NCBI GenBank assembly: GCA_039809905.1
Contig: JBDHVY010000001.1
Span: forward strand, 600,001 to 632,000
Length of the DNA: 32,000 nt
Direction: 5' to 3'
Source of the DNA: Candidatus Babelota bacterium
GTDB taxonomy: Bacteria > Babelota > Babeliae > Babelales > Vermiphilaceae
Position 1 is the stretch's first letter. The number at the start of each line of letters is the position of its first letter. Made by a program: the position numbers and the translations under genes. Shown here piece after piece: positions 14,778-27,878 of this stretch. The notes under the pieces are model-generated. The model was not told the DNA's origin. It ran no database searches and saw nothing but the letters and a program-made list of their open reading frames with translations.

Positions 14778-16408
14778 GAAGGCTCCTCATTACCAACTAA
14801 GGTTAGTTTCATAGTAAATTGTGGCATTTCCGGTGATTCAATTGGTCGAAGTATCTTTGATTGTTCTAGTTCGCGTTCAAATTCCTTGAGTGCTTCACTA
14901 TCTCGCACTTCAGCTTTTAGTGTTAAAATTCCGTCAGCTATATTGATTTGTTCAACCTTGAGATCAATTTTTTTTCTATCAATCTTTGAGGATAATTCGA
15001 GCAAATATTGCAAAAATGATGCGCGAGATTGATGAGAGAAAGCAAACCATCTTTTTTGTAATTCTTCCATTTCTTGATTTGCATCCTCAATAACATCATC
15101 ATCTAATGTTTTTGGATTTTCTAAAGTATTGAAAGTTGCAGTAAGAGCATCAAGTGCTTGTTTTTCAGAAATATGCGCAACTTCTTTTAATTTGCTTGTT
15201 TGAACATAATAGTGTGTGATCAGAGTGGCAAATATAGTTATGGTCAGAACAATAAGAACAATTAATTGCTTAAGAAGCAATGAATCGCTTTGTGTTATAA
15301 ATTCTTTCTGTGCAAGATTGTAATCAACGGTTATGGCAAGAGGCAATGTGGCGCTTACGCTAATGGCGTTAAAGGGAGTAATAAGATTGCCATTTTTTAT
15401 CGTAGATGGTGGATCTTGTATTGTTTCTTCAGCAGTAAAGAGTTCGCAACTTAATCCTGTTTTTTGTGCAATAAAAGGTACCAAGCCTTTAATAATGGAG
15501 CCACTACCAAGGAAAATAATCTTTGTTATAGGTCGGCGATTTAATAATTGTGCATTGAAAGAATTTAAGGTAAAGCTAACTCCATCCCACCATTCGGAAG
15601 TATTTTTTTGTATTGTTGATGAATGTTCAGCATTTTCAGTTTGCTCAAGCCCAAATCGTAATAAGTAGTCTACTGTTTCTTGAAGACTCTTATTAAGTTC
15701 TTGAGCAATTTGTTTGGTGAGAGCGCTAATACCTTTTGGTAATGTACGTACTGTTTTTAATTGTCCATCAACCATAAACGCAATAGCAGTTGAATGACCG
15801 GTTATATTAATTAAAGCGGTTCCACCTTCTAAGTTTTTATATGCACTAATGGATTTATATAATCCATAGATGGATATCATATCGATAGTAATAACTTCTG
15901 GTCGTATGCCTATTGCTTCAAAAAGTGCTATGTGTTGAATAATATGTTGTTTTTGAACAGCAGTTACTAAAATTTCAGAACTTTTTTCTTCAGGAATTTG
16001 CCTGGTTATAATAAAATCTATTGCTGCATCACGCAAAGAAAAAGGTAAAAGAGGTTCTATTTCAAACCCTATTACCATGCTTATTTTATCTCGAGAAGTA
16101 AAAGGAAGTTTTAGTTCTTTAAATACAACAACAGAACTTGCCAGTACGGTATGAATTTCATCATACGAACCTATTTTGGCAAAAATGGCTTTTAAAGCAG
16201 GTGATGTTGGATCAATATCTTCTTCTGATACCTCTTCTGATATCTTTTCTTCAACAATAAGTTCAATAGTGCTGGTTGTTCCGGTAATGCGTGTTTTTGT
16301 AGCAATAATTTTTGTTTTATTAATCTCAACAGCAACAACTATTTTGGTAAAAAGATAATAGGATTTTATTTTTTCTGGCAACAATACGTCTTTAATGAAT
16401 GTGCTCAT
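14774..16408 (-). CDS. PilM-like actin-fold domain fused via one TM helix to a PilN/GspL-type periplasmic domain (GspL-like architecture)
   Basis: The N-terminal ~370 aa resembles PilM/FtsA-type ATPase folds (VVVFKELKLPF, EIEPLLPF, ITIDMISIYGL, ALINITGHSTAIAFMVDG, IIFLGSGSIIKGL). Next comes a TM helix LLLKQLIVLIVLTITIFATLITHYY, then a ~150-aa coiled-coil/periplasmic part. There is a strong SD (AAGGAGG) and an ATGA overlap with the upstream secretin (16405-16408). Confidence 0.75.
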   Translation of the reverse strand: MSTFIKDVLLPEKIKSYYLFTKIVVAVEINKTKIIATKTRITGTTSTIELIVEEKISEEVSEEDIDPTSPALKAIFAKIGSYDEIHTVLASSVVVFKELKLPFTSRDKISMVIGFEIEPLLPFSLRDAAIDFIITRQIPEEKSSEILVTAVQKQHIIQHIALFEAIGIRPEVITIDMISIYGLYKSISAYKNLEGGTALINITGHSTAIAFMVDGQLKTVRTLPKGISALTKQIAQELNKSLQETVDYLLRFGLEQTENAEHSSTIQKNTSEWWDGVSFTLNSFNAQLLNRRPITKIIFLGSGSIIKGLVPFIAQKTGLSCELFTAEETIQDPPSTIKNGNLITPFNAISVSATLPLAITVDYNLAQKEFITQSDSLLLKQLIVLIVLTITIFATLITHYYVQTSKLKEVAHISEKQALDALTATFNTLENPKTLDDDVIEDANQEMEELQKRWFAFSHQSRASFLQYLLELSSKIDRKKIDLKVEQINIADGILTLKAEVRDSEALKEFERELEQSKILRPIESPEMPQFTMKLTLVGNEEPS

Positions 16409-18993
16409 ACTTGTACCTCCTTATCAGGCAAAAATTGAGCAAGAGATAATTGTGTCCGTTTCTTATTATGCATAGTTTCTATAAGATTCTGATGAGCTGT
16501 GCTCACTATTTTTTCTGGTACATCAACAGCAGGTTCATTTGGCGCAATGCTTTCTTCTTGTTGAATTATCACAGCTTGTTCTTTTTTTGCTTGCCGTTCA
16601 AAAATAAGGCCTTCAACTGATTTTTTAGCTCTGTCAGCTTTATCCTGGAAGAAGAGACGATGAATAGGATCACGATTGACGGCTGTAGTATCCATATAAT
16701 TAATCGTAGCTTGATAATCCTCAATGTGTTCACGCGTGAATGATTTCATATCTTCTCCCGCATTTGATTCAATAATGCGTGTAGAAATAAGTACCAAAAG
16801 ACTTTGTTTAATATTTATTTTACGTTTGTTTTTAAAAAACCAACCAATAATAGGAATGTCTCCTAATACAGGAACTTTTGTTTCTATATTTTGTATATTG
16901 TTTCTAATTAAACCACCAAGAGCAAGAACTTCTTTGTTCGCCACAATGGCATGAGTAACAATTTCTCTGGTGTTTTGTGTTGCACTGGTCGGATCGTTTG
17001 GATCAGCAAATTCATTAATCAGAATGCGAATGGTTAGGCCAATCATGCCATCAGAATTAATTTGTGGTGTGATAGTAACTTCAAGCAATGCGTTATCTGC
17101 ATCAAAAGCATTTACGGTGTTTGATGTGCTTGCGCTGCTTGATGCTCCGGTAATAACTTCTTCTGATACGATACGGCGTTGTTCACCAATAGAAACGGTT
17201 GCTTTGGAATTATTGGTTGCAAGTATAAACGGATTTGCTACCACTTCTGTATCAGTAATTGATTGAAGTGCTTGAAAAGCTCCCCATACGCCAAATGCAT
17301 CTCTGCCAAGAGTTAAGAACGATGTTCCTGGTACTGATCCTTGCACAAGATTAATGAGATTACCAAGAAGCCGTTGCGCTCCTGTTGTTGCATCAGGATT
17401 AGTTACGATAGTTGAAGTACCATACATTCCTGATGTTTGGAATTTAATATTATTGCCAAGAATACCATTCGGACCAGGTTCTTTAGTTCGTATTTGTGCA
17501 CCAAGACTTTTTGTATCAGTAAGGTCTACTGATGCAATAAGAACTTCAATAGCTGCTTGTGGTTGTTTTGCATCAAGCTGTCTAATAATTTTTTCTGCTT
17601 TTAGATAGTCATCATAATGGCCTTTAATAATGATGCGATTAGTTTCTGGTTCGGCAATAAATACCATTGGCCTCATGTATTGATCAGTACCACGTACACC
17701 ACCAAATTCTCGTTCTTTTGTTCCCGCACCAAATGACGTAACATCTGTCATAAGTTGAGCAATGGTTTTAGCATCAGCATATTTCAGTTGATATGTGTAA
17801 AGTGGTGAATAGGCTTGATCAAGTTCAATATCAACATATTTTACGATAAAATCTTCAATTTTTTTAATTGCGTTTTTTGGTCCGAGTAAGATGAGCGTAT
17901 TTGTTCGCGGATCAGAAATAATGCGTGTATTTTCTGGAAAGAAAAGAGAAGTCGGTTGTTTTTTAGTGAAAAAACGTGATGATGTATCTTCTTTAGGCAG
18001 CAATTCTTGATACAAATTTTTTACGGTATCTGCATCAGCATTGCGGAGTTTAAGCACAGACATAGATTCTGGAATACTGACTTTATCAAGTTCTTTAACG
18101 ATAGCCATCAACATTTTGATATTGTAGGCTTTATCAGTCAGTATAAATCCTTTGTGTTCTCTGAGTGCAATAAGACCTTGTGAACTACTGCTTCGCAGAG
18201 GCCCGACGATTTCCATAATAGTATCAACTGATGCATTTTCTAAGAAATAAACATAGCGAATTAATTCATCGTTATCAGGCAATAATTTATAATCGACACC
18301 AATAAACGTTGGCAATGGAGCTTTTCGTGCTGATTCTATTGTGGTAATTCTAAAAATTTTCGGATCTGCTTGAGGGGTGATTGCAAAGCCAGCTATATCA
18401 ATAAATGTGACAAATAAATTCCACGTTTCTTTTTTAGAAAGAGGATTATTTGTTTTGAATGATATTTTATTATTTTTTATTGATTTTTTACCCTGAGGTA
18501 GTGGAGATATTGCATCATCACTTATGAAGGTAATTTCAAAAATATCTTCAATTTGTTTCACAAAGTTTTGAAGATCAGCATTTTCAAAATTAAGTTCTAT
18601 ACTAACTTCTTCATCTTCTTCGTCTTGTATAGCAAGAGGCATTTCAACAGGTTGTGTTGCTTTATCAATGGCAGCAGGTTTTTTAGGATCTACAAAAGGA
18701 TCAGTGTATTGTTGTATTGGTCGCTGATCTAATCCATTGTTCATTTGAGATGTCTCAGCAGATTTCGGTGCCTTATCGTTGGTTGGTTTTTTTGTGGTGA
18801 AAGAAGTGCTTGCCCTGCCTGCGGTTGGAGCTGTAGCTATTGGGCTGGTATAAGCCTCAATATTCATGTGAGTATTAACGCTTTTATTTGCTGCTTTTTT
18901 TTTGCGGTAGCGTTTTCGACTTCCTGTTTCTGTTATGCTCATAACAGTGGCAAGAATAAAAACAAGAGAGAGATGAACTTTATATTTATTCAT
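16405..18993 (-). CDS. gspD: Secretin A (GspD-type: signal peptide, ~105-aa low-complexity linker, N0-N3, secretin domain, 119-aa C-terminal extension)
   Basis: N0-like segment ELNFENADLQNFVKQIEDIFEITFI. Several N1-type modules are present. Secretin-domain motifs are AIEVLIASVDLT, ANPFILATNNSKATVSIG and VPVLGDIPIIGWFFKNKRK. It lies directly downstream of the GspC-like gene. Confidence 0.9.
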   Translation of the reverse strand: MNKYKVHLSLVFILATVMSITETGSRKRYRKKKAANKSVNTHMNIEAYTSPIATAPTAGRASTSFTTKKPTNDKAPKSAETSQMNNGLDQRPIQQYTDPFVDPKKPAAIDKATQPVEMPLAIQDEEDEEVSIELNFENADLQNFVKQIEDIFEITFISDDAISPLPQGKKSIKNNKISFKTNNPLSKKETWNLFVTFIDIAGFAITPQADPKIFRITTIESARKAPLPTFIGVDYKLLPDNDELIRYVYFLENASVDTIMEIVGPLRSSSSQGLIALREHKGFILTDKAYNIKMLMAIVKELDKVSIPESMSVLKLRNADADTVKNLYQELLPKEDTSSRFFTKKQPTSLFFPENTRIISDPRTNTLILLGPKNAIKKIEDFIVKYVDIELDQAYSPLYTYQLKYADAKTIAQLMTDVTSFGAGTKEREFGGVRGTDQYMRPMVFIAEPETNRIIIKGHYDDYLKAEKIIRQLDAKQPQAAIEVLIASVDLTDTKSLGAQIRTKEPGPNGILGNNIKFQTSGMYGTSTIVTNPDATTGAQRLLGNLINLVQGSVPGTSFLTLGRDAFGVWGAFQALQSITDTEVVANPFILATNNSKATVSIGEQRRIVSEEVITGASSSASTSNTVNAFDADNALLEVTITPQINSDGMIGLTIRILINEFADPNDPTSATQNTREIVTHAIVANKEVLALGGLIRNNIQNIETKVPVLGDIPIIGWFFKNKRKINIKQSLLVLISTRIIESNAGEDMKSFTREHIEDYQATINYMDTTAVNRDPIHRLFFQDKADRAKKSVEGLIFERQAKKEQAVIIQQEESIAPNEPAVDVPEKIVSTAHQNLIETMHNKKRTQLSLAQFLPDKEVQV

Positions 18994-19008: not shown

Positions 19009-20115
19009 TCAACTGCTACTGTGGGTTGCCCGAGCACCTTTTTGAAACATTAATTGGTGATCTGCTTTTTTCATTTTATCAACGGTAGGAGCAAAAGCAT
19101 ATTGTTGTTGTTTTATAGTCTCATTTTTTTTGTGTAAAAGAAAAGCTGTTTCCTGTTTTTCAGTATTATTGAGAGACTCTTCTTCCTTTGTAGTAAAGTC
19201 TTCTAAGGTATAAACGAGGGTAATATCTCTATTTTTACGCATTAATTTTATGGTTATTGTGTTGCCAATTTTGAGTGAAGTAATGTTTTTATAGATTGCA
19301 AGCCGCTCTTCTGTTGTTTGTGCCGGAATACCATTTATAGAAAGTATTATATCACCATTTTGCAATCCTATTAAGCCGCCAAATGGAGATTTATTCATAA
19401 GGCCTATACGCAATCCTACACTTTTTCCTTGTTGATATGCTGTTGTTGCATTCAAAAGCTCAATGCACTCAGTCAAACTTTTGACTTGTTCTATAAATGA
19501 TTCAGGATTAATGAGATAAGTACTATTTCCTGTTTTTTTAACAACAGTATCCCATTCATGTGCAATATTATAGACTGGATCAGTTTTTGCATCTTGTTCT
19601 CGTAAATAAAGCACTTCTTGTTGTCCATTTAAACGCAAGAAGATAACTTTATTTTTAAATATTCGTATAAGTTGTGAATCTTGAATAAGATCACCAACTT
19701 TATAGGTACCTTCTTGTGTTGTTTTATTATCTTGAATCATTGCCCTATTTTTTGAATCATTAGAGCTTACAACAATAATACCTTTCAGTGTTATTTGAAG
19801 TGGATCAAGAAATTCTGGTTCGGCAATAGCAGGTATTATTATTTTTTGTTGAGCTGGAGGAGCAGGAAAAGGAATAACTGTTTCAGATTGTTTTACCTGT
19901 GGAATTTCTTTTACATAAGTGCCAAAAAGATCATCTTCATAAATTTTTTTGATATTGATAGCAACTTTTTGTTCTTTGCGTGGAGCAACTTCTTCTGCCT
20001 CAAGATCTTCTGATTTTGGTCGAGAAATTTTAACAGATGACACATAAATAAATGCAAAGATGACAAGGACTAAAGAAAGTAGTCCAAGATTTATAATCCA
20101 AAATGGTTGTTTCAT
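19009..20115 (-). CDS. gspC: GspC-like protein (N-terminal TM anchor, HR-like secretin-interaction segment, C-terminal PDZ domain)
   Basis: TM helix FWIINLGLLSLVLVIFAFIYV. HR-like segment is LQITLKGIIVVSSNDSKNRAMIQDN...YKVGDLIQDSQLIRIFKNKVIFLRLNGQQEVLYL. PDZ-like segment is GLRIGLMNKSPFGGLIGLQNGDIILSINGIP...TIKLMRKNRDITLVY. SD AAGGAA lies upstream. Confidence 0.75.
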   Translation of the reverse strand: MKQPFWIINLGLLSLVLVIFAFIYVSSVKISRPKSEDLEAEEVAPRKEQKVAINIKKIYEDDLFGTYVKEIPQVKQSETVIPFPAPPAQQKIIIPAIAEPEFLDPLQITLKGIIVVSSNDSKNRAMIQDNKTTQEGTYKVGDLIQDSQLIRIFKNKVIFLRLNGQQEVLYLREQDAKTDPVYNIAHEWDTVVKKTGNSTYLINPESFIEQVKSLTECIELLNATTAYQQGKSVGLRIGLMNKSPFGGLIGLQNGDIILSINGIPAQTTEERLAIYKNITSLKIGNTITIKLMRKNRDITLVYTLEDFTTKEEESLNNTEKQETAFLLHKKNETIKQQQYAFAPTVDKMKKADHQLMFQKGARATHSSS

Positions 20116-20149
20116 TAGGAATTCCTTGCATTATTTTTTTACTTTTTTC

Positions 20150-20179
20150 ACAATAACGCTCTTAACTTACCCTTGTCAA
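20150..20179 (-). promoter_or_regulatory. Candidate sigma70-type promoter for the secretin operon
   Basis: On the minus strand, TTGACA (plus 20174-20179), an 18-nt spacer, then TATTGT (plus 20150-20155), about 35 nt upstream of the gspC-like ATG. Sequence match only; read-through from the MoxR gene is also possible. Confidence 0.3.
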
Positions 20180-20223
20180 GTATACAAGCAGATCTGTTTT
20201 TTTAGAAAAGAGTAATAATTTCA

Positions 20224-21216
20224 TTACGGTGTAGGGATTGTGCTCATTATTTTCTTTATGATTGCTTCTGCTGAAACATTATCTGCTTCTGCTTCATATG
20301 TTAAGTGTAAACGATGTTGCAATGCAGGCAAACATATTGCTTTAACATCATCAGGAATCACATAATGCCGTTTTGCCAAAAAAGCATGTGTTTTTGCTGC
20401 ATGATAGAGCGCCAAAGTTGCTCTTGGAGAAACGCCATATTTAATATACGGTGTAAGCTCGTTTAATTTATAATCAGCAGGCTTTCGTGTTGCAAAAATA
20501 ATTGAAACGATATAATTAATTATTTTTTCATCAACGTAAATGCATTGTGCAAGCTTTTGTGATTCTAGTATATCGCTTTGTGTTAAAACTTGGTTGATTG
20601 TATTGGTATTGAGCGAGCGATGCAAAATTTCACGTTCTTCAAAAATAGTAGGATAATCAACGTGTATTTTGAACAAAAAGCGATCAAGTTGTGCTTCTGG
20701 CAAACGATATGTTCCTTCTTGTTCAACAGGATTTTGTGTTGCAAAAACTAAAAATGGAGCGTCAAGTTTATAGGTATGTGATCCAATAGTTACTTGTTGC
20801 TCTTGCATAGCTTCCAAAAGAGCAGCCTGGACTTTTGCCGGAGCACGATTAATTTCATCAGCAAGAATGAGGTTGGCAAAAATAGGTCCTTTTTTTGTTT
20901 CAAAATCTTGAGTTTTTGGATTAAAAATTAAGGTGCCAATCAAATCAGATGGTAGTAAGTCTGGTGTAAATTGTATGCGGTTAAAGGTAAGACCAAGAGC
21001 GGCTGCCACGGCTTTGATCATCGTAGTTTTTGCCACACCCGGAACGCCTTCAAGCAAAATATGGCCTTTACATAAAATTGCATTAACAATTAATTCAATA
21101 ATATGATTTTGACCAACAATTACTTTGCTTATTTCTGTAGGTAAATCGTTAAATCGATTGCTTTCTAGTTTTATTTGATCAATATCAGTCTGTGTCGGCA
21201 TTATATTATTCATCAT
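20224..21216 (-). CDS. MoxR-family AAA+ ATPase
   Basis: Walker [11 protein letters not shown], Walker [11 protein letters not shown], the MoxR-type [23 protein letters not shown] motif, and a C-terminal lid. I place the start at the MMNNIMPTQ methionines. The 21270 start would leave only 9 bp before the divergent dcd ORF. Confidence 0.88.
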
Positions 21217-21300
21217 ATGAATATCTTTTTTTAAAAAATAATCCTGGTACTTTATAGTATACGTTAACATTATCTTGCAATGAGTTCAATAAGGAGCATT

Positions 21301-21825
21301 ATGATTCTTTCTGGAAATGAAATTAGACGTCGATTAGGTAAAGAGCTTTTTATAGAGCCATTTAATCCATCTCAATTAGGTCCTAATAGCTATAACCTGT
21401 GCTTGCATAATGAATTGGTTGTCTATGATGAACCTCATCTTGATATGAAAAAAGAACATCAAATTCAAACATTAGTTATTCCAGAAGAAGGGATGCTTCT
21501 TGAAGCTGGTAAATTATATCTGGGAAGAACGGTTGAGTATACAAAAACTGATACTCTTGTTCCTATGATTGAAGGGCGTTCATCAATTGGCCGTTTAGGA
21601 TTGTTTATCCATGTAACAGCAGGCTTTGGTGATGTTGGTTTTCGCGGATATTGGACCCTTGAGATCTTCTGTGTTCAACCAGTTCGCATCTATCCTGGTG
21701 TAGAAATATGCCAAATCTTTTATCACACCATTGAGGGTGATTATGCAAAGTATTCGAGCAATAAATATCAAAACAATCGCGGTATCCAGCCGAGCATGCT
21801 CTATAAAGATTTTCAGAAAGAATAG
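21301..21825 (+). CDS. dcd: dCTP deaminase
   Basis: Sequence is MILSGNEIRRRL..., SYNLCLHNEL, EGRSSIGRLGLFIHVTAGFGDVGFRGYWTLEI. The start at 21301 has a consensus SD AAGGAG (21291-21296) upstream; the listed 21280 start lacks one. Confidence 0.92.
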   Translation: MILSGNEIRRRLGKELFIEPFNPSQLGPNSYNLCLHNELVVYDEPHLDMKKEHQIQTLVIPEEGMLLEAGKLYLGRTVEYTKTDTLVPMIEGRSSIGRLGLFIHVTAGFGDVGFRGYWTLEIFCVQPVRIYPGVEICQIFYHTIEGDYAKYSSNKYQNNRGIQPSMLYKDFQKE

Positions 21826-21826
21826 C
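21770..21826 (+). repeat. Direct repeat copy A (functional 3' end of dcd)
   Basis: These 57 nt align without gaps to 22725-22781, with 44 of 57 identical by hand alignment. Confidence 0.8.
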
Positions 21827-21842
21827 ACTTTAAAGGGATGTT

Positions 21843-22715
21843 ATGAAACAATTGATAATACCCGTATTTGCGCTTCTATCTACTATTTTTCAGGCACAAA
21901 GCATGGAAATTTGTGATGAGACAAAAAAATCTGAAAAAGATAGTTTAAATGCAAAAAGTAAATATCCGAATTACAACTCACTTTCAAATAGGAGTAATAA
22001 TTATTCGAAAGCAGAGGATCTGAAAATTTTTTTGAAAATAACTGCACAAGAACTTATCCCTGATGTTCAAAACCGTATTGCAACCAAATTTATACAGCTG
22101 TATTTTTCAAACACTTCTCTGAGTTGCGCCAAGTTAAAACCTCTGGAGTTATTGCATTTTGTATCTAAGGTTCAAAATATTTGTCCAATAAAAATTGGTA
22201 ATAAAATATTTGAATGGAAAGATATAATTGTCTTAACAAAAAAACAACAGGAAAAACTTTTTGTTGTAGGAAATCCTCACTATCTTTATACATGCTTAAC
22301 CGGCTTTGATAATAATGTTATTGAAGCACCAAATGATTGTTGCACAAAAACTGTGTATTGTTTACCCCAATATTGTTGTGGAAAAATGGCTCCCGATATA
22401 AAACTTCTAGAAGATCAGCCAGCGCATATCAAAAAAAATCTTATTGTTCATACTGATGATTATTCGGCTGTATGTTGTCAATGCATTCCTGCTTGTACGG
22501 CTGGATTTTGTTTGTTATATCCTGTGCTTGGTGTTGCTAATGGTTGTGCAATTTCTTTTTGTTCGACAACATTATCATCATGGGTGTGGTGGTTGCCTAT
22601 GGGATTCTGGCCTACTTGTGGGGGGCTTTTTCTTCTAAAGAGATTTTTGCTAAGAGCAAAAAACGGTTCTTGTTGTTCAAACGAACATGATTTACATGAA
22701 AGAAGATTTGAATAA
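21843..22715 (+). CDS. Cys-rich, hydrophobic-tailed secreted protein family, member 1 (290 aa)
   Basis: SD AAAGGGA lies upstream. Signal peptide is MKQLIIPVFALLSTIFQAQS|ME. Shared family motifs are LIPDVQNRI, PIKIGNK..EW, LTKKQQEKL and QPAHIKKN. CC/CxC clusters give about 16 Cys in the last 140 aa. The C-terminal region has two hydrophobic segments. Confidence 0.7.
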   Translation: MKQLIIPVFALLSTIFQAQSMEICDETKKSEKDSLNAKSKYPNYNSLSNRSNNYSKAEDLKIFLKITAQELIPDVQNRIATKFIQLYFSNTSLSCAKLKPLELLHFVSKVQNICPIKIGNKIFEWKDIIVLTKKQQEKLFVVGNPHYLYTCLTGFDNNVIEAPNDCCTKTVYCLPQYCCGKMAPDIKLLEDQPAHIKKNLIVHTDDYSAVCCQCIPACTAGFCLLYPVLGVANGCAISFCSTTLSSWVWWLPMGFWPTCGGLFLLKRFLLRAKNGSCCSNEHDLHERRFE

Positions 22716-22724
22716 TAAAAACTA

Positions 22725-22781
22725 AAAATGATCGTGGTATTCAGCTGAGTATGTTATACAAGGATTCTCAGAAAGAATGGG
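22725..22781 (+). pseudogene. Direct repeat copy B: relic of a dcd 3' end (no upstream gene body)
   Basis: In the dcd-equivalent frame it reads NDRGIQLSMLYKDSQKE, against NNRGIQPSMLYKDFQKE in dcd. The dcd stop position is TGG here. It lies immediately upstream of the next gene's ATG (22788). Confidence 0.75.
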
Positions 22782-22787
22782 AAAATA

Positions 22788-23237
22788 ATGCGTAATAATT
22801 TGTATGTGGTACTAGGGCTTTGGATAATTTTTATTGGTAATGAATCTTTAATTGCGATGCATGAATCGATAAAAGTAAAAATAGAAAATTTGAGAATAGC
22901 TCATGTAGCAGAAATACGACAGCATGAAAAAGGGTGTAGTGACTGTCTTGTTGATCAAGCCTGTGGTAGATCAGAAATTGCGCAAAAATTTACAAAACAA
23001 GTTGGTGAGTTGGTATTAAATGCCGGAGATCTAGTGACTGATCAAGAAAAATTAAATCATGCCTACGGAAAGTTGCTTTATCCTCAACGAAAAGAAGTTA
23101 TTAAAAAAATGATTAGTGAAGGTCAACATCCAAACAATATAGTATATCAGCTAAATGAAGAAACTCCTTTGAAGAAAGCAGTTAAATTTGAAGATGAAGA
23201 ATTTATTCGGTTTTTGCGTGAACATGGTGCTGATTAG
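22788..23237 (+). CDS. Small signal-peptide protein with a single C-terminal ankyrin-like repeat (149 aa)
   Basis: N-terminus is MRNNLYVVLGLWIIFIGNESLIA|MH. The C-terminal ...ETPLKKAVKFEDEEFIRFLREHGAD fits the ANK consensus (TPLh.A...g..e.v.fLl.hGAd). Confidence 0.55.
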   Translation: MRNNLYVVLGLWIIFIGNESLIAMHESIKVKIENLRIAHVAEIRQHEKGCSDCLVDQACGRSEIAQKFTKQVGELVLNAGDLVTDQEKLNHAYGKLLYPQRKEVIKKMISEGQHPNNIVYQLNEETPLKKAVKFEDEEFIRFLREHGAD

Positions 23238-23243
23238 ATAAAT

Positions 23244-23267
23244 CTGCTAAGCAAGGCCCTTGAAACA
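23244..23267. terminator. GC-rich hairpin between convergent genes (probable bidirectional terminator)
   Basis: Stem aggccctt (23244-23251) pairs with aagggcct (23260-23267) across an 8-nt loop. There is no clear U-tract on either side. Confidence 0.5.
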
Positions 23268-23283
23268 TCAAGGGCCTATTAAC

Positions 23284-25143
23284 TTAGCAGAGGTATTTAG
23301 TAATAATATCTTTGAATGATTGGTTTTCAACAAAAAAGTCTCGTATATATTCATATAATGGCTGAGATATATGATTAAGCACAGAAGTATTTTCTTTTTT
23401 TGCTCTGAATAATTGTATTAATGCATAGAAATCAACAAAATTCATGTTTTTTGACAAATCAACAAGAGGGATATTTTCTGTATCCGTAATCAGTTCTGTT
23501 GTTATTGATTTGTATTTATCAAACGTTGTTATTAAAGATCTTCCGTTGTTTGTCATTCCTACCCCCCTAATAGATGGTTCTGCAAAATCAATGGTGCCGA
23601 CGCAGTTGCCAGTTGTGTGATTATATAATTTAACGCAACTAGAGGCACAGCCATTGTTTGTTGCTATGCAGGCAATCGGCGAATGTGGAATTGAGCATGC
23701 AGCTGCATAGATATTTTCGTCTTCTTTTCCCTCTTGTGTTGCCGTTTTGCTTAAAAAAGCCCCTGAAAGAAGATCAAAAAAGAATGTTGCGTATTGTGTT
23801 GAAATAGCAACAATATTTTGTTGAGGGTAGTTAAAGGTAATAGTTGCTTCAGCAGAACGTTTTGTAGGAATTTTAATTGATTGTAATTCTTTAATATTAT
23901 TTAGATTGCTCGTGTCCCATATCATAAATATGTGACCTTCAAATTTCCGATGTGCAAGGCAACCAATAAGTCTTGTATCATTATAATTAAAGGTTAGTTC
24001 TAATGGCCATGATTGAGAAAGAGCAGATTCTCCACTAGGCAACTTTAAAGTATTGACTACTTTTTTCTTTTGAAGAGAAAATAATTCTACTTCTCCTGGT
24101 TTTCCTGATGCAAGAATTGTTGATGCATTATTAAAACAAGGTGCTGTATTAAAGTTACAAGCTGGAACAATGATTGTATCTGATAAATAGTCATTATCAG
24201 AATCATCCAAACAGGTGAGCATAAATTTGCTGTTTTGCTGTCCTATCATAGCATAAGAGCTAGTAACAAGCCATTTGCCATCAGGGCTCAATGAAGCCCT
24301 ATTAATGAGTGAGCCATGGGTAATAGCTGGAATTTCCAAAGTTCCCTGAATTATACCAAATTCATTATCTTTTTTTTCAACAATAAAGTGATTTGTTTTT
24401 GGAGAAAGAAGTATTAAAGGTAGTTCTTCTTGTTCACTATTTTTTACTAAAACGAGACTCGGTTGTCCATTAAAATTATGTATATTAAGATCTTTAACCT
24501 TAGGCATATCGATAGGGCTGCCTCTTTGAGAAATTTTTCTCAAACAATCGTCTTGATTGTAAGAATACGCTGGTGCTTGTATGATTGATTGATTGGTTAT
24601 ATTATCGATAATCATACAAGATTTAAGATGCACAAAAAGTTGATTGAATTGTTTAGGGCAATATTTTTTAATAATACGGTTTAAGACAACAGGGTGATCG
24701 AGCCATTGAACAGCAAGCTGCGCTGTTAAGCGTAAAGCATGTAATTTTTTTGTACCATCACTCAATTGTGCACCTGCAGCGATAGTGAGTACGCGTTGTT
24801 TATCAGGGGTAAGTTTTTTAAAATATTTTGAAAAAGATTTTGATTGTTGATGACCGATATTTTTATTGAGCGATGTATCAAAAAGAGTTATTTCTTCTGT
24901 TGTAATGTTGGGAATGATAATAGGATTTTTTTTATTCTGAGAATAATAGCATTCACATAATGTGTTTGATTCTTTTTTTACTTTCCATTTTTCAATTGAA
25001 TAGGTTGATCCGTCATCTAGTTGAAGATTTATTTTGTTTTTTGTTGTTGGCGCATCCATGGAAATAAGAGAAGCTGAGTATATTAATAGAAAAATGATAA
25101 CGTAATAATCAATTGACCAAAACTGAGCAAAAGTATAGCGCAT
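23284..25143 (-). CDS. Signal-peptide protein: possible Skp1/BTB-POZ-like N-terminal segment plus probable beta-propeller (619 aa)
   Basis: SD AGGATGAAG lies upstream, 30 nt downstream of mlaF on the same strand. N-terminus is ...YYVIIFLLIYSASLIS|MD. Blade-like starts are SLSPDGKWLVTSS, LTFNYNDTRLIGC, ITFNYPQQNIVAIST and GMTNNGRSLITT. The N-terminal segment KINLQLDDGSTYSIEKW...NPIIIPNITTEEITLF is discussed under findings. Confidence 0.6.
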   Translation of the reverse strand: MRYTFAQFWSIDYYVIIFLLIYSASLISMDAPTTKNKINLQLDDGSTYSIEKWKVKKESNTLCECYYSQNKKNPIIIPNITTEEITLFDTSLNKNIGHQQSKSFSKYFKKLTPDKQRVLTIAAGAQLSDGTKKLHALRLTAQLAVQWLDHPVVLNRIIKKYCPKQFNQLFVHLKSCMIIDNITNQSIIQAPAYSYNQDDCLRKISQRGSPIDMPKVKDLNIHNFNGQPSLVLVKNSEQEELPLILLSPKTNHFIVEKKDNEFGIIQGTLEIPAITHGSLINRASLSPDGKWLVTSSYAMIGQQNSKFMLTCLDDSDNDYLSDTIIVPACNFNTAPCFNNASTILASGKPGEVELFSLQKKKVVNTLKLPSGESALSQSWPLELTFNYNDTRLIGCLAHRKFEGHIFMIWDTSNLNNIKELQSIKIPTKRSAEATITFNYPQQNIVAISTQYATFFFDLLSGAFLSKTATQEGKEDENIYAAACSIPHSPIACIATNNGCASSCVKLYNHTTGNCVGTIDFAEPSIRGVGMTNNGRSLITTFDKYKSITTELITDTENIPLVDLSKNMNFVDFYALIQLFRAKKENTSVLNHISQPLYEYIRDFFVENQSFKDIITKYLC

Positions 25144-25173
25144 GCTTCATCCTGTTTTTTTAGAAAAATAGTT

Positions 25174-25968
25174 CTATGCCTTATCTTTAAAGTGCGGAAT
25201 TTCTTGAGAAATTGGTCCCTTCAAATCACCACGAATAAATTGATGAATGTAAGGATTATCAGATTCCCATATTGTTTGAGCATCACCAAAATATTGAATT
25301 TTGCCTTCGTGAAGCAAAGCAACTTTATCAGCGTACTTAAATGTCTCTACATCATGTGAAATAACGACAGACGTTAATTTGAGTTTTTTTTGCATATCAA
25401 ACATAAGTTCATGAATCACGTGAGACGTGATTGGATCAAGACCTGTGGTTGGCTCATCATATAAAATAATTTCTGGATTGGTGACAAGTGTGCGTGCCAA
25501 TCCTACTCGTTTTCTCATACCACCTGATAATTCAGAAGGGTATTTGTATAAGTTTTCTTCTGATAATTGTACCAGCGCCAATTTTTCTTTAACAATAGGC
25601 AAAATCTCTTTTTCTGATTTGCCTTGTTCAATAAGTGTGATGCCAATATTTTCATAAATATTTAATGAATCAAGAAGTGCCGCAAACTGGAAAACATATC
25701 CAAACTTACTGAAACAATCATCAAGATCTTTGCCTTGCAACTGAGTAATATCCGCTCCATCAATAATAATGCTGCCTGATGTTGGTTGAATAAGACCAAT
25801 AACTTGTTTAAGTAAAACAGATTTACCTTCACCAGACCGACCAATAATGATAGTCATCAGCCCTTCAGGAATATCAAGATTAACTCCACGCGTAACCCAA
25901 TGACCATCAAACTCTTTTTGCAGATCGATGATTTTAATTTTAGTTTTATGTGAAGTTTCTTTTTTCAT
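25174..25968 (-). CDS. mlaF: ABC transporter ATP-binding protein, MlaF-like
   Basis: Walker A GRSGEGKS, signature LSGGMRKRVGLARTL, Walker B IILYDEPTTGLD, H-loop ISHD. It lies immediately downstream of the MlaE-like permease. Confidence 0.85.
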   Translation of the reverse strand: MKKETSHKTKIKIIDLQKEFDGHWVTRGVNLDIPEGLMTIIIGRSGEGKSVLLKQVIGLIQPTSGSIIIDGADITQLQGKDLDDCFSKFGYVFQFAALLDSLNIYENIGITLIEQGKSEKEILPIVKEKLALVQLSEENLYKYPSELSGGMRKRVGLARTLVTNPEIILYDEPTTGLDPITSHVIHELMFDMQKKLKLTSVVISHDVETFKYADKVALLHEGKIQYFGDAQTIWESDNPYIHQFIRGDLKGPISQEIPHFKDKA

Positions 25969-25979
25969 AATAACTCTTT

Positions 25980-26759
25980 TTACAAGTGCTCAAGTAATTT
26001 GGTCAAGAAATAATTAGAGATCAAAATTAATATTGAACTTGCAACTACCGATTGAGTTGTTGCAGTACCAACACCTCGCGCACCACCATGAGTATACATT
26101 CCTTTATATGTTCCTACCCATGAAAGAATAAGCCCAAAGATTGCAGCTTTTTTCAATCCACCGTAAATATCTGTTAATTCAACATAATTACGTATACTGC
26201 TTTCATAATCTTCTGGACTTAGTTCAAGCACGTAAACACATACAATGTAACCGCCAATGATACCAAAAAACATAGAAAATAAGGTTAAAAAAGGTAAAAT
26301 TATGGTGCTTGCAAGAATACGAGGGACAACAAGATACTGAAAAATATTGATACGCAAGGTCGTCAGCGCATCAACTTGCTCGGTAATAATCATAGTACCA
26401 ATTTCTGCCGTAATAGCTGATCCAGCGCGACCAGTTACCATTAATGCAGTAAGCACAGGTCCCAATTCTCTGATTAATCCTAATGCGACGATTGCACCGA
26501 TAAATTGTTCTCCACCAACGCGTTGAAAGCCAATATAGGTTTGTAATGCAAGAACCATTCCCGTAAATAATCCCGTCAAAACAACAATACTCAAAGATTC
26601 AACACCAATCCGATTCATTTGGAAAAATGTTTTAGAAACTTTGAGTTTTGTGCTGAAAAATGTTTTAACTGCTTCCAGAAAAAAAAGAGTAAAACTACCT
26701 AAAGCTGTACATGTATTAATAACCAAAGCACCCAAAAAAGTAGCAAATTGAATAAACAC
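25980..26759 (-). CDS. mlaE: ABC transporter permease, MlaE/YrbE family
   Basis: GRAGSAITAEIGTMIITEQVDALTTL is the hallmark MlaE motif. There are about 5 TM segments. GTG start with GAGGT as SD. Confidence 0.85.
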   Translation of the reverse strand: MFIQFATFLGALVINTCTALGSFTLFFLEAVKTFFSTKLKVSKTFFQMNRIGVESLSIVVLTGLFTGMVLALQTYIGFQRVGGEQFIGAIVALGLIRELGPVLTALMVTGRAGSAITAEIGTMIITEQVDALTTLRINIFQYLVVPRILASTIILPFLTLFSMFFGIIGGYIVCVYVLELSPEDYESSIRNYVELTDIYGGLKKAAIFGLILSWVGTYKGMYTHGGARGVGTATTQSVVASSILILISNYFLTKLLEHL

Positions 26760-27263: not shown

Positions 27264-27878
27264 ATGAGAAAAAATGTGATGATAAGTTTGGTATTGTTGG
27301 CTATTACTCAAGCCTTACTTGCGTGCGAAGATAATAAAGTGTTAACGCCTGTTCTTCAGCAACCAAAAGAATTACCGACACCCTTGGTTATCGGCAACAA
27401 GGCAATAAGCCAAAGAAGGTTGTTAAAATTATCTGATGACCAACAAGAAGAACTTCATAGAATATCCCATCCAGGGACTATTGCACGGTGCTTTGGTTAC
27501 AATAGCCAGGTGATTTCTCCTCAAGATGTCAAAACAATTAATACTATGCCTGATTGGATAAGAAAAGATATGAAAGTTAAAGTTCTTACCGTAAATCATT
27601 CTTGTTGTGTTAGTGGCCCCGTTGACCGTCATGATAATTATACAGGAAAGGCTGCTGCACTCACAGGCATAGCATCGGGTCTTGCAGGTTGTGTTTTTTA
27701 TACGGTTATGTTTTTCGGCCCAAATTGTCCATGGAGTTTTTGTGCTATTCCAATAGCTGGCGTCCCTCCGATGTGCGCAGCCGGATGTGCAGAATGCAGC
27801 AGTTGTATATATCATCGCTATTATGCTGAACGACAAGAATACGCATATGCTGATCACAATGAAATTAGTAGTGAGTAA
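27264..27878 (+). CDS. Cys-rich, hydrophobic-tailed family, member 2 (204 aa; probable lipoprotein signal LLA|C)
   Basis: SD AAGGAG lies upstream. N-terminus MRKNVMISLVLLAITQALLAC has a lipobox-like end. Family motifs are PLVIGNKAIS, LSDDQQEEL and NTMPDWIRKD, then HSCC and a Cys/Gly-rich hydrophobic tail. Its 3' end overlaps the tpiA 3' end by 14 nt. Confidence 0.7.
   Translation: MRKNVMISLVLLAITQALLACEDNKVLTPVLQQPKELPTPLVIGNKAISQRRLLKLSDDQQEELHRISHPGTIARCFGYNSQVISPQDVKTINTMPDWIRKDMKVKVLTVNHSCCVSGPVDRHDNYTGKAAALTGIASGLAGCVFYTVMFFGPNCPWSFCAIPIAGVPPMCAAGCAECSSCIYHRYYAERQEYAYADHNEISSE

What the first reader, a model, noticed from the sequence alone, without database searches (positions are those of the whole stretch)
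21770..22781. 57-bp diverged direct repeat of the dcd 3' end brackets a single Cys-rich family gene: an insertion scar
The last 57 nt of dcd including its stop (21770-21826) recur 955 bp downstream at 22725-22781. The gapless hand alignment gives 44 of 57 identities, and weaker similarity may extend another ~18 nt upstream. In the dcd frame the second copy reads NDRGIQLSMLYKDSQKE against NNRGIQPSMLYKDFQKE. Of the 13 differences, seven fall in six synonymously changed codons (cgc/cgt, atc/att, agc/agt, ctc/tta, tat/tac, aaa/aag). That pattern implies both copies once evolved as coding sequence. The stop position is TGG in copy B, and six differences are C in dcd versus T in the relic. The only gene between the repeats is family member 1 (21843-22715). 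Copy B abuts the ATG of the next gene (22788), just as copy A abuts the ATG of member 1. This is the pattern left by elements that integrate into the 3' end of a gene and carry a replacement end, displacing the native end to the far side. Here the cargo is one ~0.9-kb gene and no integrase or transposase is visible. It gives direct evidence that this gene family is, or was, mobile within the chromosome.
Basis: seen in the sequence. Interest (0 to 1): 0.75.

Follow-up and report, generated by a model that had tools for sequence, protein, structure and literature searches.

The report
Recombination scar after the dcd gene
A dead 64-base copy of the end of the dCTP deaminase gene sits one gene downstream of the live gene in this uncultured amoeba-parasite-type bacterium (Babeliales); related genomes show it marks where two alternative gene arrangements were spliced together, which is a clear but ordinary kind of genome scar.

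Summary
The repeat is real. Copy A is 21763-21825, the last 63 nt of dcd. Copy B is 22717-22780. The gapless core matches at 44/57, against a next-best 31/57 anywhere in the window. Related Babeliales genomes show what it is. The order moxR<-, dcd->, [variable], <-abc/mlaE/secG is conserved, and the dcd-abc gap ranges from 15 bp to about 5.5 kb with different genes in each genome. Some relatives have dcd followed directly by the p149 gene (empty site). Others have dcd followed by the Cys-rich gene (mem1) with no repeat. One other species (three samples) has the window's layout, dcd-mem1-relic-p149, with the same junction and a fresher relic (58/63). Its sister genome has the clean empty site. 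So the insertion-scar reading holds. The idea that mem1 is mobile cargo is weaker. Every mem1 homologue whose context could be read (eight further genes, six further loci) lies in this interval. There is no recombinase, no terminal inverted repeat and no attC-like fold, and other family members carry no scars. In the window, synonymous-site data suggest relic+p149 is the later arrival. The likeliest mechanism is one microhomology (TAAT) join between two arrangements, later passed on by homologous recombination. Interest is moderate.

The parts
21301..21825 (+). dcd (dCTP deaminase, 174 aa), the live gene whose 3' end is duplicated
   Evidence: Pfam PF22769 DCD on the exact product. It is 97% aa identical to L004, L087 and L084. 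A Shine-Dalgarno AAGGAG lies at 21291.
21763..21825 (+). Copy A: the last 63 nt of dcd including the TAG stop (functional)
   Evidence: All of its lineage-specific changes are synonymous.
21826..21842 (+). 17-nt dcd-mem1 spacer, a shortened version of the 37-nt spacer seen in L168 and L175
21843..22715 (+). mem1: 290-aa Cys-rich protein with an N-terminal signal-peptide-like segment and a hydrophobic Cys-rich C-terminus. It is the only gene between the repeats.
   Evidence: No Pfam match. The family has about 10 proteins among 5.8 billion, all in Babeliales dcd-abc intervals where context could be read. It is related to p204 (27264-27878) with blastp E = 1e-8. The AF2 model is unusable, pLDDT 42.
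22713..22719 (+). Novel junction: mem1 stop TAA plus T, then the relic. A TAAT/AAT microhomology is shared with dcd position -66 to -63.
   Evidence: The same junction occurs in L168...GAATGAT|AAATATC.
22717..22780 (+). Copy B: dead relic of the dcd 3' end (64 nt). The stop codon is now TGG, and there are 6 changes at codon positions 1/2 plus a 1-nt insertion.
   Evidence: It is 84-88% identical to the dcd tails of L087, L008 and L004, but only 77% identical to its own copy A.
22781..22787 (+). 7-nt remnant of the original dcd-p149 spacer, after a deletion of about 16-20 nt relative to L167 and L168
22788..23237 (+). p149: small, fast-evolving gene with a weak ankyrin-like C-terminus. It follows dcd directly in the empty-site genomes.
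   Evidence: Homologues P0005-P0007 and their contexts. Pfam Ank_2 is below threshold at E = 0.008.
23254..23277 (.). G+C-rich inverted repeat (AGGCCCTTGA...TCAAGGGCCT) between the convergent p149 and p619; possibly a bidirectional terminator
   Evidence: Read from the sequence. The strict terminator scan did not call it.
23284..25143 (-). p619: WD40-like protein, shared with the close relative L087 (63% aa). It fills the rest of the variable interval.
   Evidence: Its synonymous divergence equals that of the flanking genes.
25174..25968 (-). ABC ATPase (MlaF-like), the conserved right border of the variable interval

Best explanation
The repeat is the scar of a recombination that spliced together two alternative gene arrangements downstream of dcd. 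In one arrangement dcd is followed by mem1. In the other dcd is followed by p149. The only new junction lies 1 nt after the mem1 stop codon and 63 nt before the dcd stop, at a 3-4 nt TAAT/AAT microhomology. As a result the last 63 nt of a dcd gene (copy B), with its native spacer, stayed attached to p149 and decayed, while the live dcd kept copy A.

Shown: the repeat; both parental arrangements; the occupied and empty sister pair; the identical junction in two species; and the absence of any recombinase or structured site.

Inferred: the join was an illegitimate (homology-facilitated, microhomology) event made once. It was then passed between related lineages, or lost again, by ordinary RecA-type homologous recombination using dcd, the 63-nt repeats and p149 as homology. 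This would explain why the relics look younger than the species split. In the window the relic+p149 segment is the likelier import, and mem1 the resident.
For: - Synteny moxR<-, dcd->, [variable], <-abc<-mlaE<-secG holds in about 25 Babeliales loci. The gap ranges from 15 bp (L064, L092) and 102 bp (L011) up to 3.3 kb in the window and 5.5 kb in L174, with different content in each genome.
- The parental arrangements exist. dcd-p149 occurs in L167 and L171-173. dcd-mem1 without a repeat occurs in L175 and L084, and mem1 lies next to abc in L086 and L174.
- L168, L169 and L170 (three samples) carry dcd-mem1-relic-p149 with the same junction and a relic 58/63 identical to their own tail (E = 1e-22). 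L167 and L168 are sisters: 200/200 bootstraps, 94-95% nt identity in the flanking genes. After the cassette is removed they align straight through.
- The relic-p149 spacer of L168 is collinear with the dcd-p149 spacer of L167. The dcd-mem1 spacer (37 nt, GTG start) is homologous in L168 and L175. Only one junction is therefore new.
- Relic ages, counted at 42 codon-position-1/2 sites. L168_R has 1 change against 13.4 expected if it had been neutral since the WIN/L168 split (P = 2e-6). WIN_B has 6 against 13.4 (P = 0.008). The two relics share no derived states.
- Of the 12 in-codon A/B differences, 8 are synonymous, where random single changes give 16% (P = 1e-4).
- p149 between WIN and L167 differs at 5/26 four-fold sites, against 82/167 in the flanking genes (Fisher 0.005). 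Four control comparisons equal their flanks.
- No integrase or transposase, terminal inverted repeats, tRNA, Rfam hit or hairpin was found.
- Dependentiae encode rec/ruv homologous recombination (PMC6561590).
Against: - An identical junction in two non-sister species, each with a sister lacking it, is also what a site-specific element would give.
- The lateral-transfer evidence rests on small counts (26 four-fold sites, 63-nt tails). The WIN-L168 p149 comparison is only P = 0.09.
- Copy B is nearest to the L087 tail (8 differences), not to L167 (14) or L168 (11), which fits an L167/168-like donor poorly.
- If relic+p149 came from an L168-like donor, the left crossover in the window must have used no more than about 13 nt of homology at the mem1 end, because the mem1 alleles are saturated at four-fold sites (0.50).
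- No donor genome has been sampled, and no direct evidence of DNA exchange among these obligate intracellular bacteria was obtained.
Confidence: 0.55

Rival explanations
1. A small site-specific integrative cassette. [dcd tail + spacer + mem1] is a mobile unit that a recombinase encoded elsewhere (for example a Xer-type or other tyrosine recombinase) inserts into an attB in the dcd 3' end. It supplies a replacement end and displaces the native one.
For: - The direct repeat equals the gene's 3' end exactly up to the stop codon.
- The junction is identical in two non-sister species, each of whose close relatives lacks the insert.
- The relics are young relative to the species split, as recurrent insertion would give.
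- The synonymous excess fits a carried replacement end.
- mem1 homologues always sit at the dcd locus.
Against: - No recombinase lies in the 955 bp, in the 32-kb window, or in any variant of the interval examined.
- There is no inverted-repeat or hairpin structure and no long identical core. The longest exact A/B match in the window is 11 nt.
- mem1 occurs directly after dcd in L175 and L084 with no repeat at all.
- The dcd-mem1 spacer is shared by L168 and L175 as ordinary orthologous sequence.
- The mem1 alleles are as diverged as the species (four-fold 0.50-0.53).
- In the window the younger-looking part is p149, not mem1.
Confidence: 0.15
2. One ancient event in the common ancestor of the clade, inherited vertically. 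Precise loss followed in L167 and L171 by recombination between the repeats, and larger deletions in L087, L175, L084 and L004. Intragenomic gene conversion from the live tail refreshed the relic, strongly in L168.
For: - The identical junction.
- mem1 four-fold divergence equal to species divergence.
- 63-nt direct repeats can mediate both deletion and conversion.
- The interval is demonstrably prone to gain and loss.
Against: - It needs at least five independent losses plus conversion.
- Conversion across a 63-nt tract that had already diverged by more than 20% is unlikely.
- The window's A and B share none of A's six lineage-specific synonymous changes.
- It does not explain the low p149 synonymous distance between WIN and L167.
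Confidence: 0.2
3. An in-situ duplication, by tandem duplication or replication slippage of the dcd tail region within one genome, unrelated to gene movement.
For: It is a direct repeat in one orientation, 955 bp apart. Tandem duplication of mem1 does occur at this locus in L084.
Against: - The sequences that follow A and B are unrelated. mem1 and p149 give no blastp match.
- The L084 paralogues have no relic between them: score 20 against shuffles of 16.2 +/- 2.4, with 49/500 reaching it.
- The relic with its spacer matches the native dcd-p149 junction of the empty-site genomes.
- The excess of synonymous differences.
Confidence: 0.05
4. Chance similarity in AT-rich sequence, or an assembly chimera.
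For: The window is 34% G+C, and it comes from a metagenome-assembled genome.
Against: - 44/57 against a window-wide maximum of 31/57. E = 9.5e-10. 0/500 shuffles reach the score.
- The relic matches the dcd tails of seven other genomes at 81-88%.
- The sequence is identical in two further assemblies.
- The same layout occurs in three independent samples of another species.
Confidence: 0.01

Closest known systems
Homology-facilitated illegitimate recombination (additive integration of foreign DNA anchored by one homologous arm, with the other end joined at a microhomology). Described for naturally transformable bacteria; this description is from my own knowledge, not tested here.
   Same: There is one new junction, at a 3-4 nt microhomology (TAAT). 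The other side is ordinary conserved sequence (moxR-dcd). The outcome is additive and leaves a short duplicated piece of the anchor region. No element-encoded enzyme is needed.
   Different: It has not been observed experimentally in this phylum. Competence and DNA uptake in Babeliales are unknown. The same junction is present in two species, so a single event must have been propagated afterwards.
Integrase-mediated genomic islands and prophages that insert into the 3' end of a tRNA or protein gene and carry a replacement end (attL/attR direct repeats)
   Same: The direct repeat equals the 3' end of the target gene up to its stop. The gene stays intact. The displaced or duplicated end lies on the far side. 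Empty sites exist in relatives.
   Different: There is no integrase. The cargo is a single 0.9-kb gene. There is no identical core and no arm structure. The cargo gene is a long-standing resident of the same interval in related genomes that lack any repeat.
Campbell-type (single-crossover) insertion-duplication by homologous recombination of a circular DNA carrying a short homologous segment
   Same: It produces exactly an insert flanked by two copies of the homologous segment. It is reversible by recombination between the repeats, which would yield the clean empty site seen in L167.
   Different: No circular intermediate has been seen. 63 nt is short for efficient RecA-dependent integration.
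Integron gene cassettes
   Same: A single promoterless ORF placed behind an expressed gene, bounded by elements of about 60 nt.
   Different: The repeat is coding sequence of dcd. It has no attC-like imperfect palindrome (DNA folding z is about 0). No intI was found.

Membership tests
Integrative element at a gene 3' end (attL/attR, integrase-mediated) | Direct repeats that duplicate the 3' end of the target gene and flank the insert | tested here: met
   A is 21763-21825 and B is 22717-22780. In L168 the pair is 58/63 identical.
Integrative element at a gene 3' end (attL/attR, integrase-mediated) | Integrase or recombinase gene inside or next to the element | tested here: not met
   The only ORF is mem1, which has no Pfam match. 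No recombinase was found among the window ORFs or in the interval genes of relatives.
Integrative element at a gene 3' end (attL/attR, integrase-mediated) | Unoccupied site in related genomes | tested here: met
   L167 and L171-173 have dcd directly followed by p149.
Integrative element at a gene 3' end (attL/attR, integrase-mediated) | Identical core (crossover) sequence shared by both repeats, with recombinase-binding inverted repeats | tested here: inconclusive
   The longest exact match in the window is 11 nt (TCAGAAAGAAT). No conserved inverted repeats were found. Decay could have erased a core.
Integrative element at a gene 3' end (attL/attR, integrase-mediated) | Excised circular form, or mobility to new genomes | not testable with these tools
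   This needs raw reads or PCR.
Illegitimate / homology-facilitated recombination scar | A single novel junction at a short microhomology, with the remaining sequence collinear with two parental arrangements | tested here: met
   The junction is ...GAATAAT|AAAAAC in the window and ...GAATGAT|AAATATC in L168, against dcd ...GCAAT|AAATATC. The parental arrangements are in L175 and L084, and in L167 and L171. Both spacers are collinear.
Illegitimate / homology-facilitated recombination scar | The two joined segments have different evolutionary histories (donor versus recipient) | tested here: inconclusive
   p149 between WIN and L167 differs at 5/26 four-fold sites against 82/167 in the flanks (P = 0.005), but WIN-L168 gives P = 0.09. 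The tails are too short to place.
Transposon / IS / MITE | Terminal inverted repeats, a short target-site duplication and a transposase | tested here: not met
   No terminal inverted repeats are shared by the window and L168. The duplication is 63 nt. No transposase was found.
Integron gene cassette | attC imperfect palindrome at the cassette end, and intI nearby | tested here: not met
   DNA folding of the three repeat copies gives z = +0.29, -0.26 and -0.35. No integrase was found.
Tandem duplication | Homologous sequence following both repeat copies | tested here: not met
   mem1 and p149 show no similarity, and the spacers differ.

The most novel reading that the evidence does not exclude
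[dcd tail + mem1] is a minimal single-gene cassette with no recombinase of its own. It repeatedly enters and leaves the 3' end of dcd in different Babeliales species, either through a recombinase encoded elsewhere or by excision and Campbell-type re-integration through its 63-nt repeat. That would make it a new type of host-dependent mobile unit, spreading a fast-evolving surface or effector gene among obligate intracellular bacteria.
Probability: 0.15. Interest if true: 0.7.

Novelty: new member of a known kind. Interest (0 to 1): 0.4.

Why it matters
Babeliales/Dependentiae are uncultured obligate parasites of protists with small genomes, and little is known about how they gain and lose genes. 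This locus is an unusually clean case. It is a conserved housekeeping frame (moxR-dcd ... abc-mlaE-secG) with one slot that holds different lineage-specific secreted, ankyrin-like or Cys-rich genes in each species. The dated scar in that slot shows that two versions of the slot were physically recombined. With the occupied and empty sister genomes and the p149 synonymous-site anomaly, it gives testable evidence for recombination-driven exchange of host-interaction genes between related intracellular lineages. It does not reveal a new class of mobile element.

Tried and rejected
- Exact lookup of the 181-aa dcd ORF found nothing. The 174-aa product from ATG 21301 is the one on record.
- I searched 25 genome loci, plus L084, L174 and L175, for a relic of each locus's own dcd tail. 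Only the window and L168-170 have one.
- An apparent relic between the two mem1 paralogues of L084 is not significant (49/500 shuffles reach its score).
- I looked for a recombination breakpoint inside the window's dcd by sliding-window differences against 12 relatives. No clear breakpoint appeared.
- I tried to decide which copy is native from tail distances. B is nearest to L087 (8 differences) and A to L092 (4) and L004 (7), but 63 nt is too short to decide.
- L167 and L168 p149 are only 69% aa identical, which first suggested recombination. Their synonymous divergence equals the flanks, so this is fast protein evolution instead.
- The AlphaFold2 model of mem1 from a 9-sequence alignment had mean pLDDT 41.9, so no fold search was run.
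- Pfam found nothing for mem1, p204, p249 or p244.
- The promoter/terminator scan found no enrichment and no terminator between dcd, mem1 and p149.
- There are no tRNAs in the window and no Rfam hits in 20000-26000.
- No duplicated neighbour ends flank p204, p249 or p244.
- Literature searches on Dependentiae genomics and on homology-facilitated illegitimate recombination found nothing about this locus or gene family.
- The cluster lookup gave no accession or name for the source genome.
Full report
**1. The observation**

The window is 34% G+C. dcd is best read as 21301-21825 (174 aa). A Shine-Dalgarno AAGGAG lies at 21291, and this exact product, not the 181-aa ORF, is on record on two Logan contigs.

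The last 57 nt of dcd (21770-21826) match 22725-22781 at 44/57 without gaps. The best other 57-mer on either strand of the window reaches 31/57 (mean 14.9, sd 3.4). blastn gives E = 9.5e-10. A local alignment scores 58 against 15.6 +/- 2.4 in 500 shuffles, none of which reaches it. The repeat finder returns the same pair on its own as its only comparable family. The stretch 21251-23300 is identical in two independent assemblies.

The true extent is 63/64 nt: A = 21763-21825 and B = 22717-22780, with one 1-nt indel. The in-codon differences are 8 synonymous and 4 non-synonymous (N>D, P>L, F>S, stop>W).

**2. Where the window comes from, and the locus frame**

The dcd protein finds close relatives (85-97% aa) only in Babeliales/Dependentiae MAGs. 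Across about 25 such loci the order is conserved: T2SS-C<-, moxR<-, dcd->, [variable], <-abc<-mlaE<-secG(...<-tim).

The dcd-abc gap is about 15 bp in L064 and L092, 102 bp in L011, about 1 kb in L004, L006 and L010, 2.5-3.3 kb in L007, L009 and the window, and 5.5 kb in L174. Its content differs in nearly every genome: ankyrin-like proteins, kinase-like proteins, methyltransferases, a DUF4143 ATPase, a YhcG nuclease and small secreted ORFs. The repeat therefore lies inside a hypervariable slot between convergent housekeeping genes.

**3. The two genes next to the repeat, in other genomes**

mem1 (21843-22715) has no Pfam match. It belongs to a very small family: 10 proteins in 5.8 billion with a family profile. 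Every homologue whose context could be read lies in the same dcd-abc interval.

| Locus | Arrangement |
|---|---|
| L175 | dcd-mem1-<abc |
| L084 | dcd-mem1a-mem1b-<abc |
| L086 | mem1-<abc |
| L174 | dcd, five other genes, mem1-<abc |
| P0013 contig | dcd-p203-mem1 |
| L168 | dcd-mem1-relic-p149 |

None of L084, L174 or L175 has a relic of the dcd tail.

p149 (22788-23237) has homologues that follow dcd directly. In L167 the spacer is 27 nt. In L171-173 the order is dcd-p149-<abc.

**4. A second, fresher instance**

L168, L169 and L170 are three independent samples. They carry dcd, a mem1 homologue (278 aa, 44-46% identical to the window's), a relic, and then a p149 homologue. The relic (L168 2516-2578) is 58/63 identical to that genome's own dcd tail (E = 1e-22). 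It still ends in TAG and has a single disabling change, CAA>TAA.

The left junction is the same as in the window:
- window: ...AGATTTGAATAAT|AAAAACTAAAAATGATCGT
- L168: ...AGATTTGAATGAT|AAATATCAAAACAATCGT

In dcd the same point reads ...GCAAT|AAATATC, a 3-4 nt TAAT/AAT microhomology.

The relic-to-p149 spacer of L168 (GTAAATTAATTATAGGAAAAATG) is collinear with the dcd-to-p149 spacer of L167 (GGCATATTAATTTTAATAGGAAAAATA). The window keeps only GAAAATA. The dcd-to-mem1 spacer is 37 nt with a GTG start and a similar signal peptide in both L168 and L175. So only the mem1-end|relic joint is new. Everything else is collinear with one or other parental arrangement.

**5. Phylogenetic placement**

In an NJ tree of moxR+dcd (1472 columns), L167 and L168 are sisters in 200/200 bootstraps, with 93.6% and 94.8% nt identity. 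The window groups with L175 and L087, then L084.

The occupied state is thus found in two non-sister species. Each has a close relative that lacks it: L167 has the clean empty site, L175 has dcd-mem1-abc, and L087 has dcd-p80-<p619. After the cassette is removed from L168, L167 and L168 align straight through at 89-98% until p149.

**6. Age and origin of the relics**

Four-fold-site divergence in moxR+dcd is as follows.

| Pair | Four-fold divergence |
|---|---|
| WIN-L168 | 0.50 |
| WIN-L087 | 0.44 |
| L167-L168 | 0.20 |

At the 42 codon-position-1/2 sites of the tail, the observed and expected changes are as follows.

| Relic | Observed | Expected if neutral since | P |
|---|---|---|---|
| L168_R | 1 | 13.4 (WIN/L168 split) | 2e-6 |
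| L168_R | 1 | 4.5 (L167/L168 split) | 0.05 |
| WIN_B | 6 | 13.4 (WIN/L168 split) | 0.008 |
| WIN_B | 6 | 11.1 (WIN/L087 split) | 0.047 |

The two relics share no derived state. Hence they did not decay together from a relic in the common ancestor of the two species. Either the structure reached the two lineages later, or the relic was refreshed.

In the window, all changes specific to copy A are synonymous (CGC, ATC, AGC, CTC, AAA), and B shares none of them. Eight of the 12 in-codon A/B differences are synonymous, where random single changes would give 16% (P = 1e-4).

Copy B resembles the tails of L087 (8 differences), L008 and L004 more than its own copy A (15 differences). However, 63 nt cannot decide which copy is native, and no breakpoint is visible inside dcd.

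**7. Which part moved?**

The mem1 alleles are saturated at four-fold sites: 0.50 for WIN-L168 and 0.53 for WIN-L175. That is as old as, or older than, the species.

p149 behaves differently. WIN-L167 differs at 5/26 four-fold sites against 82/167 in the flanking genes (Fisher 0.005). Synonymously different codons are 23/90 against 170/437 (P = 0.017). WIN-L168 shows the same trend (P = 0.09). Four control comparisons equal their flanks: L167-L168, L167-L171 and WIN-L171 for p149, and WIN-L087 for p619. The counts are small, but this points to p149, and with it the attached relic, having been exchanged between the window's lineage and the L167/168 lineage after the species split.

The 69% aa identity of p149 between the sisters L167 and L168, at normal synonymous divergence, indicates very fast protein evolution.

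**8. Mechanism**

Shown:
- There is a single novel junction at a microhomology.
- Both parental arrangements exist.
- A sister pair is occupied and empty, bounded exactly by the repeat.
- No recombinase or transposase is present in the cassette, in the 32-kb window, or in any variant of the slot examined.
- No terminal inverted repeats are shared by the two instances.
- The repeat has no hairpin or attC-like fold (z about 0).
- There is no tRNA or Rfam element.

Inferred: the joint arose once by illegitimate, homology-facilitated recombination between a dcd-mem1 genome and a dcd-p149 genome. The merged arrangement was then transmitted, or resolved back to the empty site, by ordinary homologous recombination through dcd, the 63-nt repeats and p149. 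Dependentiae encode rec/ruv functions (PMC6561590).

With no terminator called between dcd, mem1 and p149 and spacers of only 17 and 7 nt, the three genes are probably co-transcribed from the dcd promoter. This too is an inference.

**9. Rivals**

- A site-specific cassette using a recombinase encoded elsewhere would also explain the identical junction in non-sister species and the young relics. It is not excluded (0.15). It lacks every enzymatic or structural hallmark, and it conflicts with mem1 being an old resident of the slot without repeats in L175 and L084.
- One ancient event with vertical descent, several losses and gene conversion is possible (0.2). It needs many steps and does not explain the p149 anomaly.
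- In-situ tandem duplication is close to refuted.
- Chance similarity or an assembly artefact is refuted.

**10. Family mobility**

mem1 is related to p204 (27264-27878; blastp E = 1e-8). p204 occupies a second variable slot between secG and tim in the window, L087, L084 and L004. No duplicated neighbour ends flank p204, p249 or p244. At the dcd locus the family also expands by tandem duplication (L084). The claim that the family is mobile within the chromosome is not supported beyond this one scar.

**11. Verdict**

This is a real and well-documented recombination scar in a hypervariable slot of Babeliales genomes. The cargo and mechanism need to be reinterpreted. It is a new example of a known kind of event, not a new kind of element. 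Interest is moderate. It would rise if read-level data showed active excision and re-integration.

Noticed in passing
window 21826-25173; loci L004-L011, L064, L084, L087, L092, L167-L175: The dcd-abc intergenic slot is hypervariable across Babeliales. It runs from 15 bp to about 5.5 kb and holds different lineage-specific genes in almost every genome: ankyrin-like, kinase-like, methyltransferases, a DUF4143 ATPase, a YhcG nuclease and small secreted ORFs.
   Followed up: partly
window 22788-23237; L167 8001-8456; L168 2599-3054: p149 evolves extremely fast. The sister genomes L167 and L168 share only 69% aa identity, although four-fold divergence (0.23) equals the flanks (0.20). This suggests diversifying selection on a putative host-interaction protein.
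   Followed up: partly
window 22788-23237 versus L167 and L168: Synonymous divergence of p149 between the window and L167 (5/26 four-fold sites) is far below that of the flanking genes (82/167; Fisher 0.005). This hints at lateral exchange of this gene between species.
   Followed up: partly
L084 9070-10885: Two tandem mem1 paralogues (274 and 294 aa, 66% identical over the N-terminal 147 aa) lie with no dcd relic between them. The family also grows by local tandem duplication.
   Followed up: yes
window 27264-27878: p204, a distant relative of mem1 (blastp E = 1e-8), sits in a second variable slot between secG and tim. Its 3' end overlaps the tim 3' end by 14 nt. secG and tim are only about 40 nt apart in L011. 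p204 homologues occupy the same slot in L087, L084 and L004.
   Followed up: partly
L007 9930-11012; L084 12847-13956; L175 9088-10161: A YhcG/DUF1016 PDDEXK-nuclease gene appears in different variable slots of different genomes: dcd-abc in L007 and next to secG in L084 and L175. It may itself be a roaming gene.
   Followed up: no
window 4534-5148 (inside ORF 4268-5482): Four direct-repeat copies 68-72% identical, spaced 123 nt apart, lie inside a gene with strong WD40 beta-propeller Pfam matches. The repeats are probably the WD40 blades.
   Followed up: partly
window 11737-14202 and 16405-18993: Two paralogous secretin (GspD-like) genes flank a PilM-like gene, matching the two gspD copies reported for TM6 genomes (PMC4776705). 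A 30-nt 93% repeat (12249 / 16896) reflects this paralogy.
   Followed up: no
window 23244-23290: A nested G+C-rich inverted repeat (CTGCTAAG...AGGCCCTTGA / TCAAGGGCCT...CTTAGCAG) lies between the convergent p149 and p619 and overlaps the p619 stop codon. It looks like a bidirectional terminator but was not called by the T-run-based scan.
   Followed up: no
L087 3986-4336: L087, one of the two closest relatives of the window, uses TGA as its dcd stop (the window relic has TGG). It carries an unrelated 80-aa secreted coiled-coil-like ORF where the window has mem1-relic-p149.
   Followed up: partly
window 21280-21300: The longest dcd ORF starts at 21280, but the start that has a Shine-Dalgarno sequence and is on record is 21301. 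ORF-based annotation would over-extend dcd by 7 codons.
   Followed up: yes
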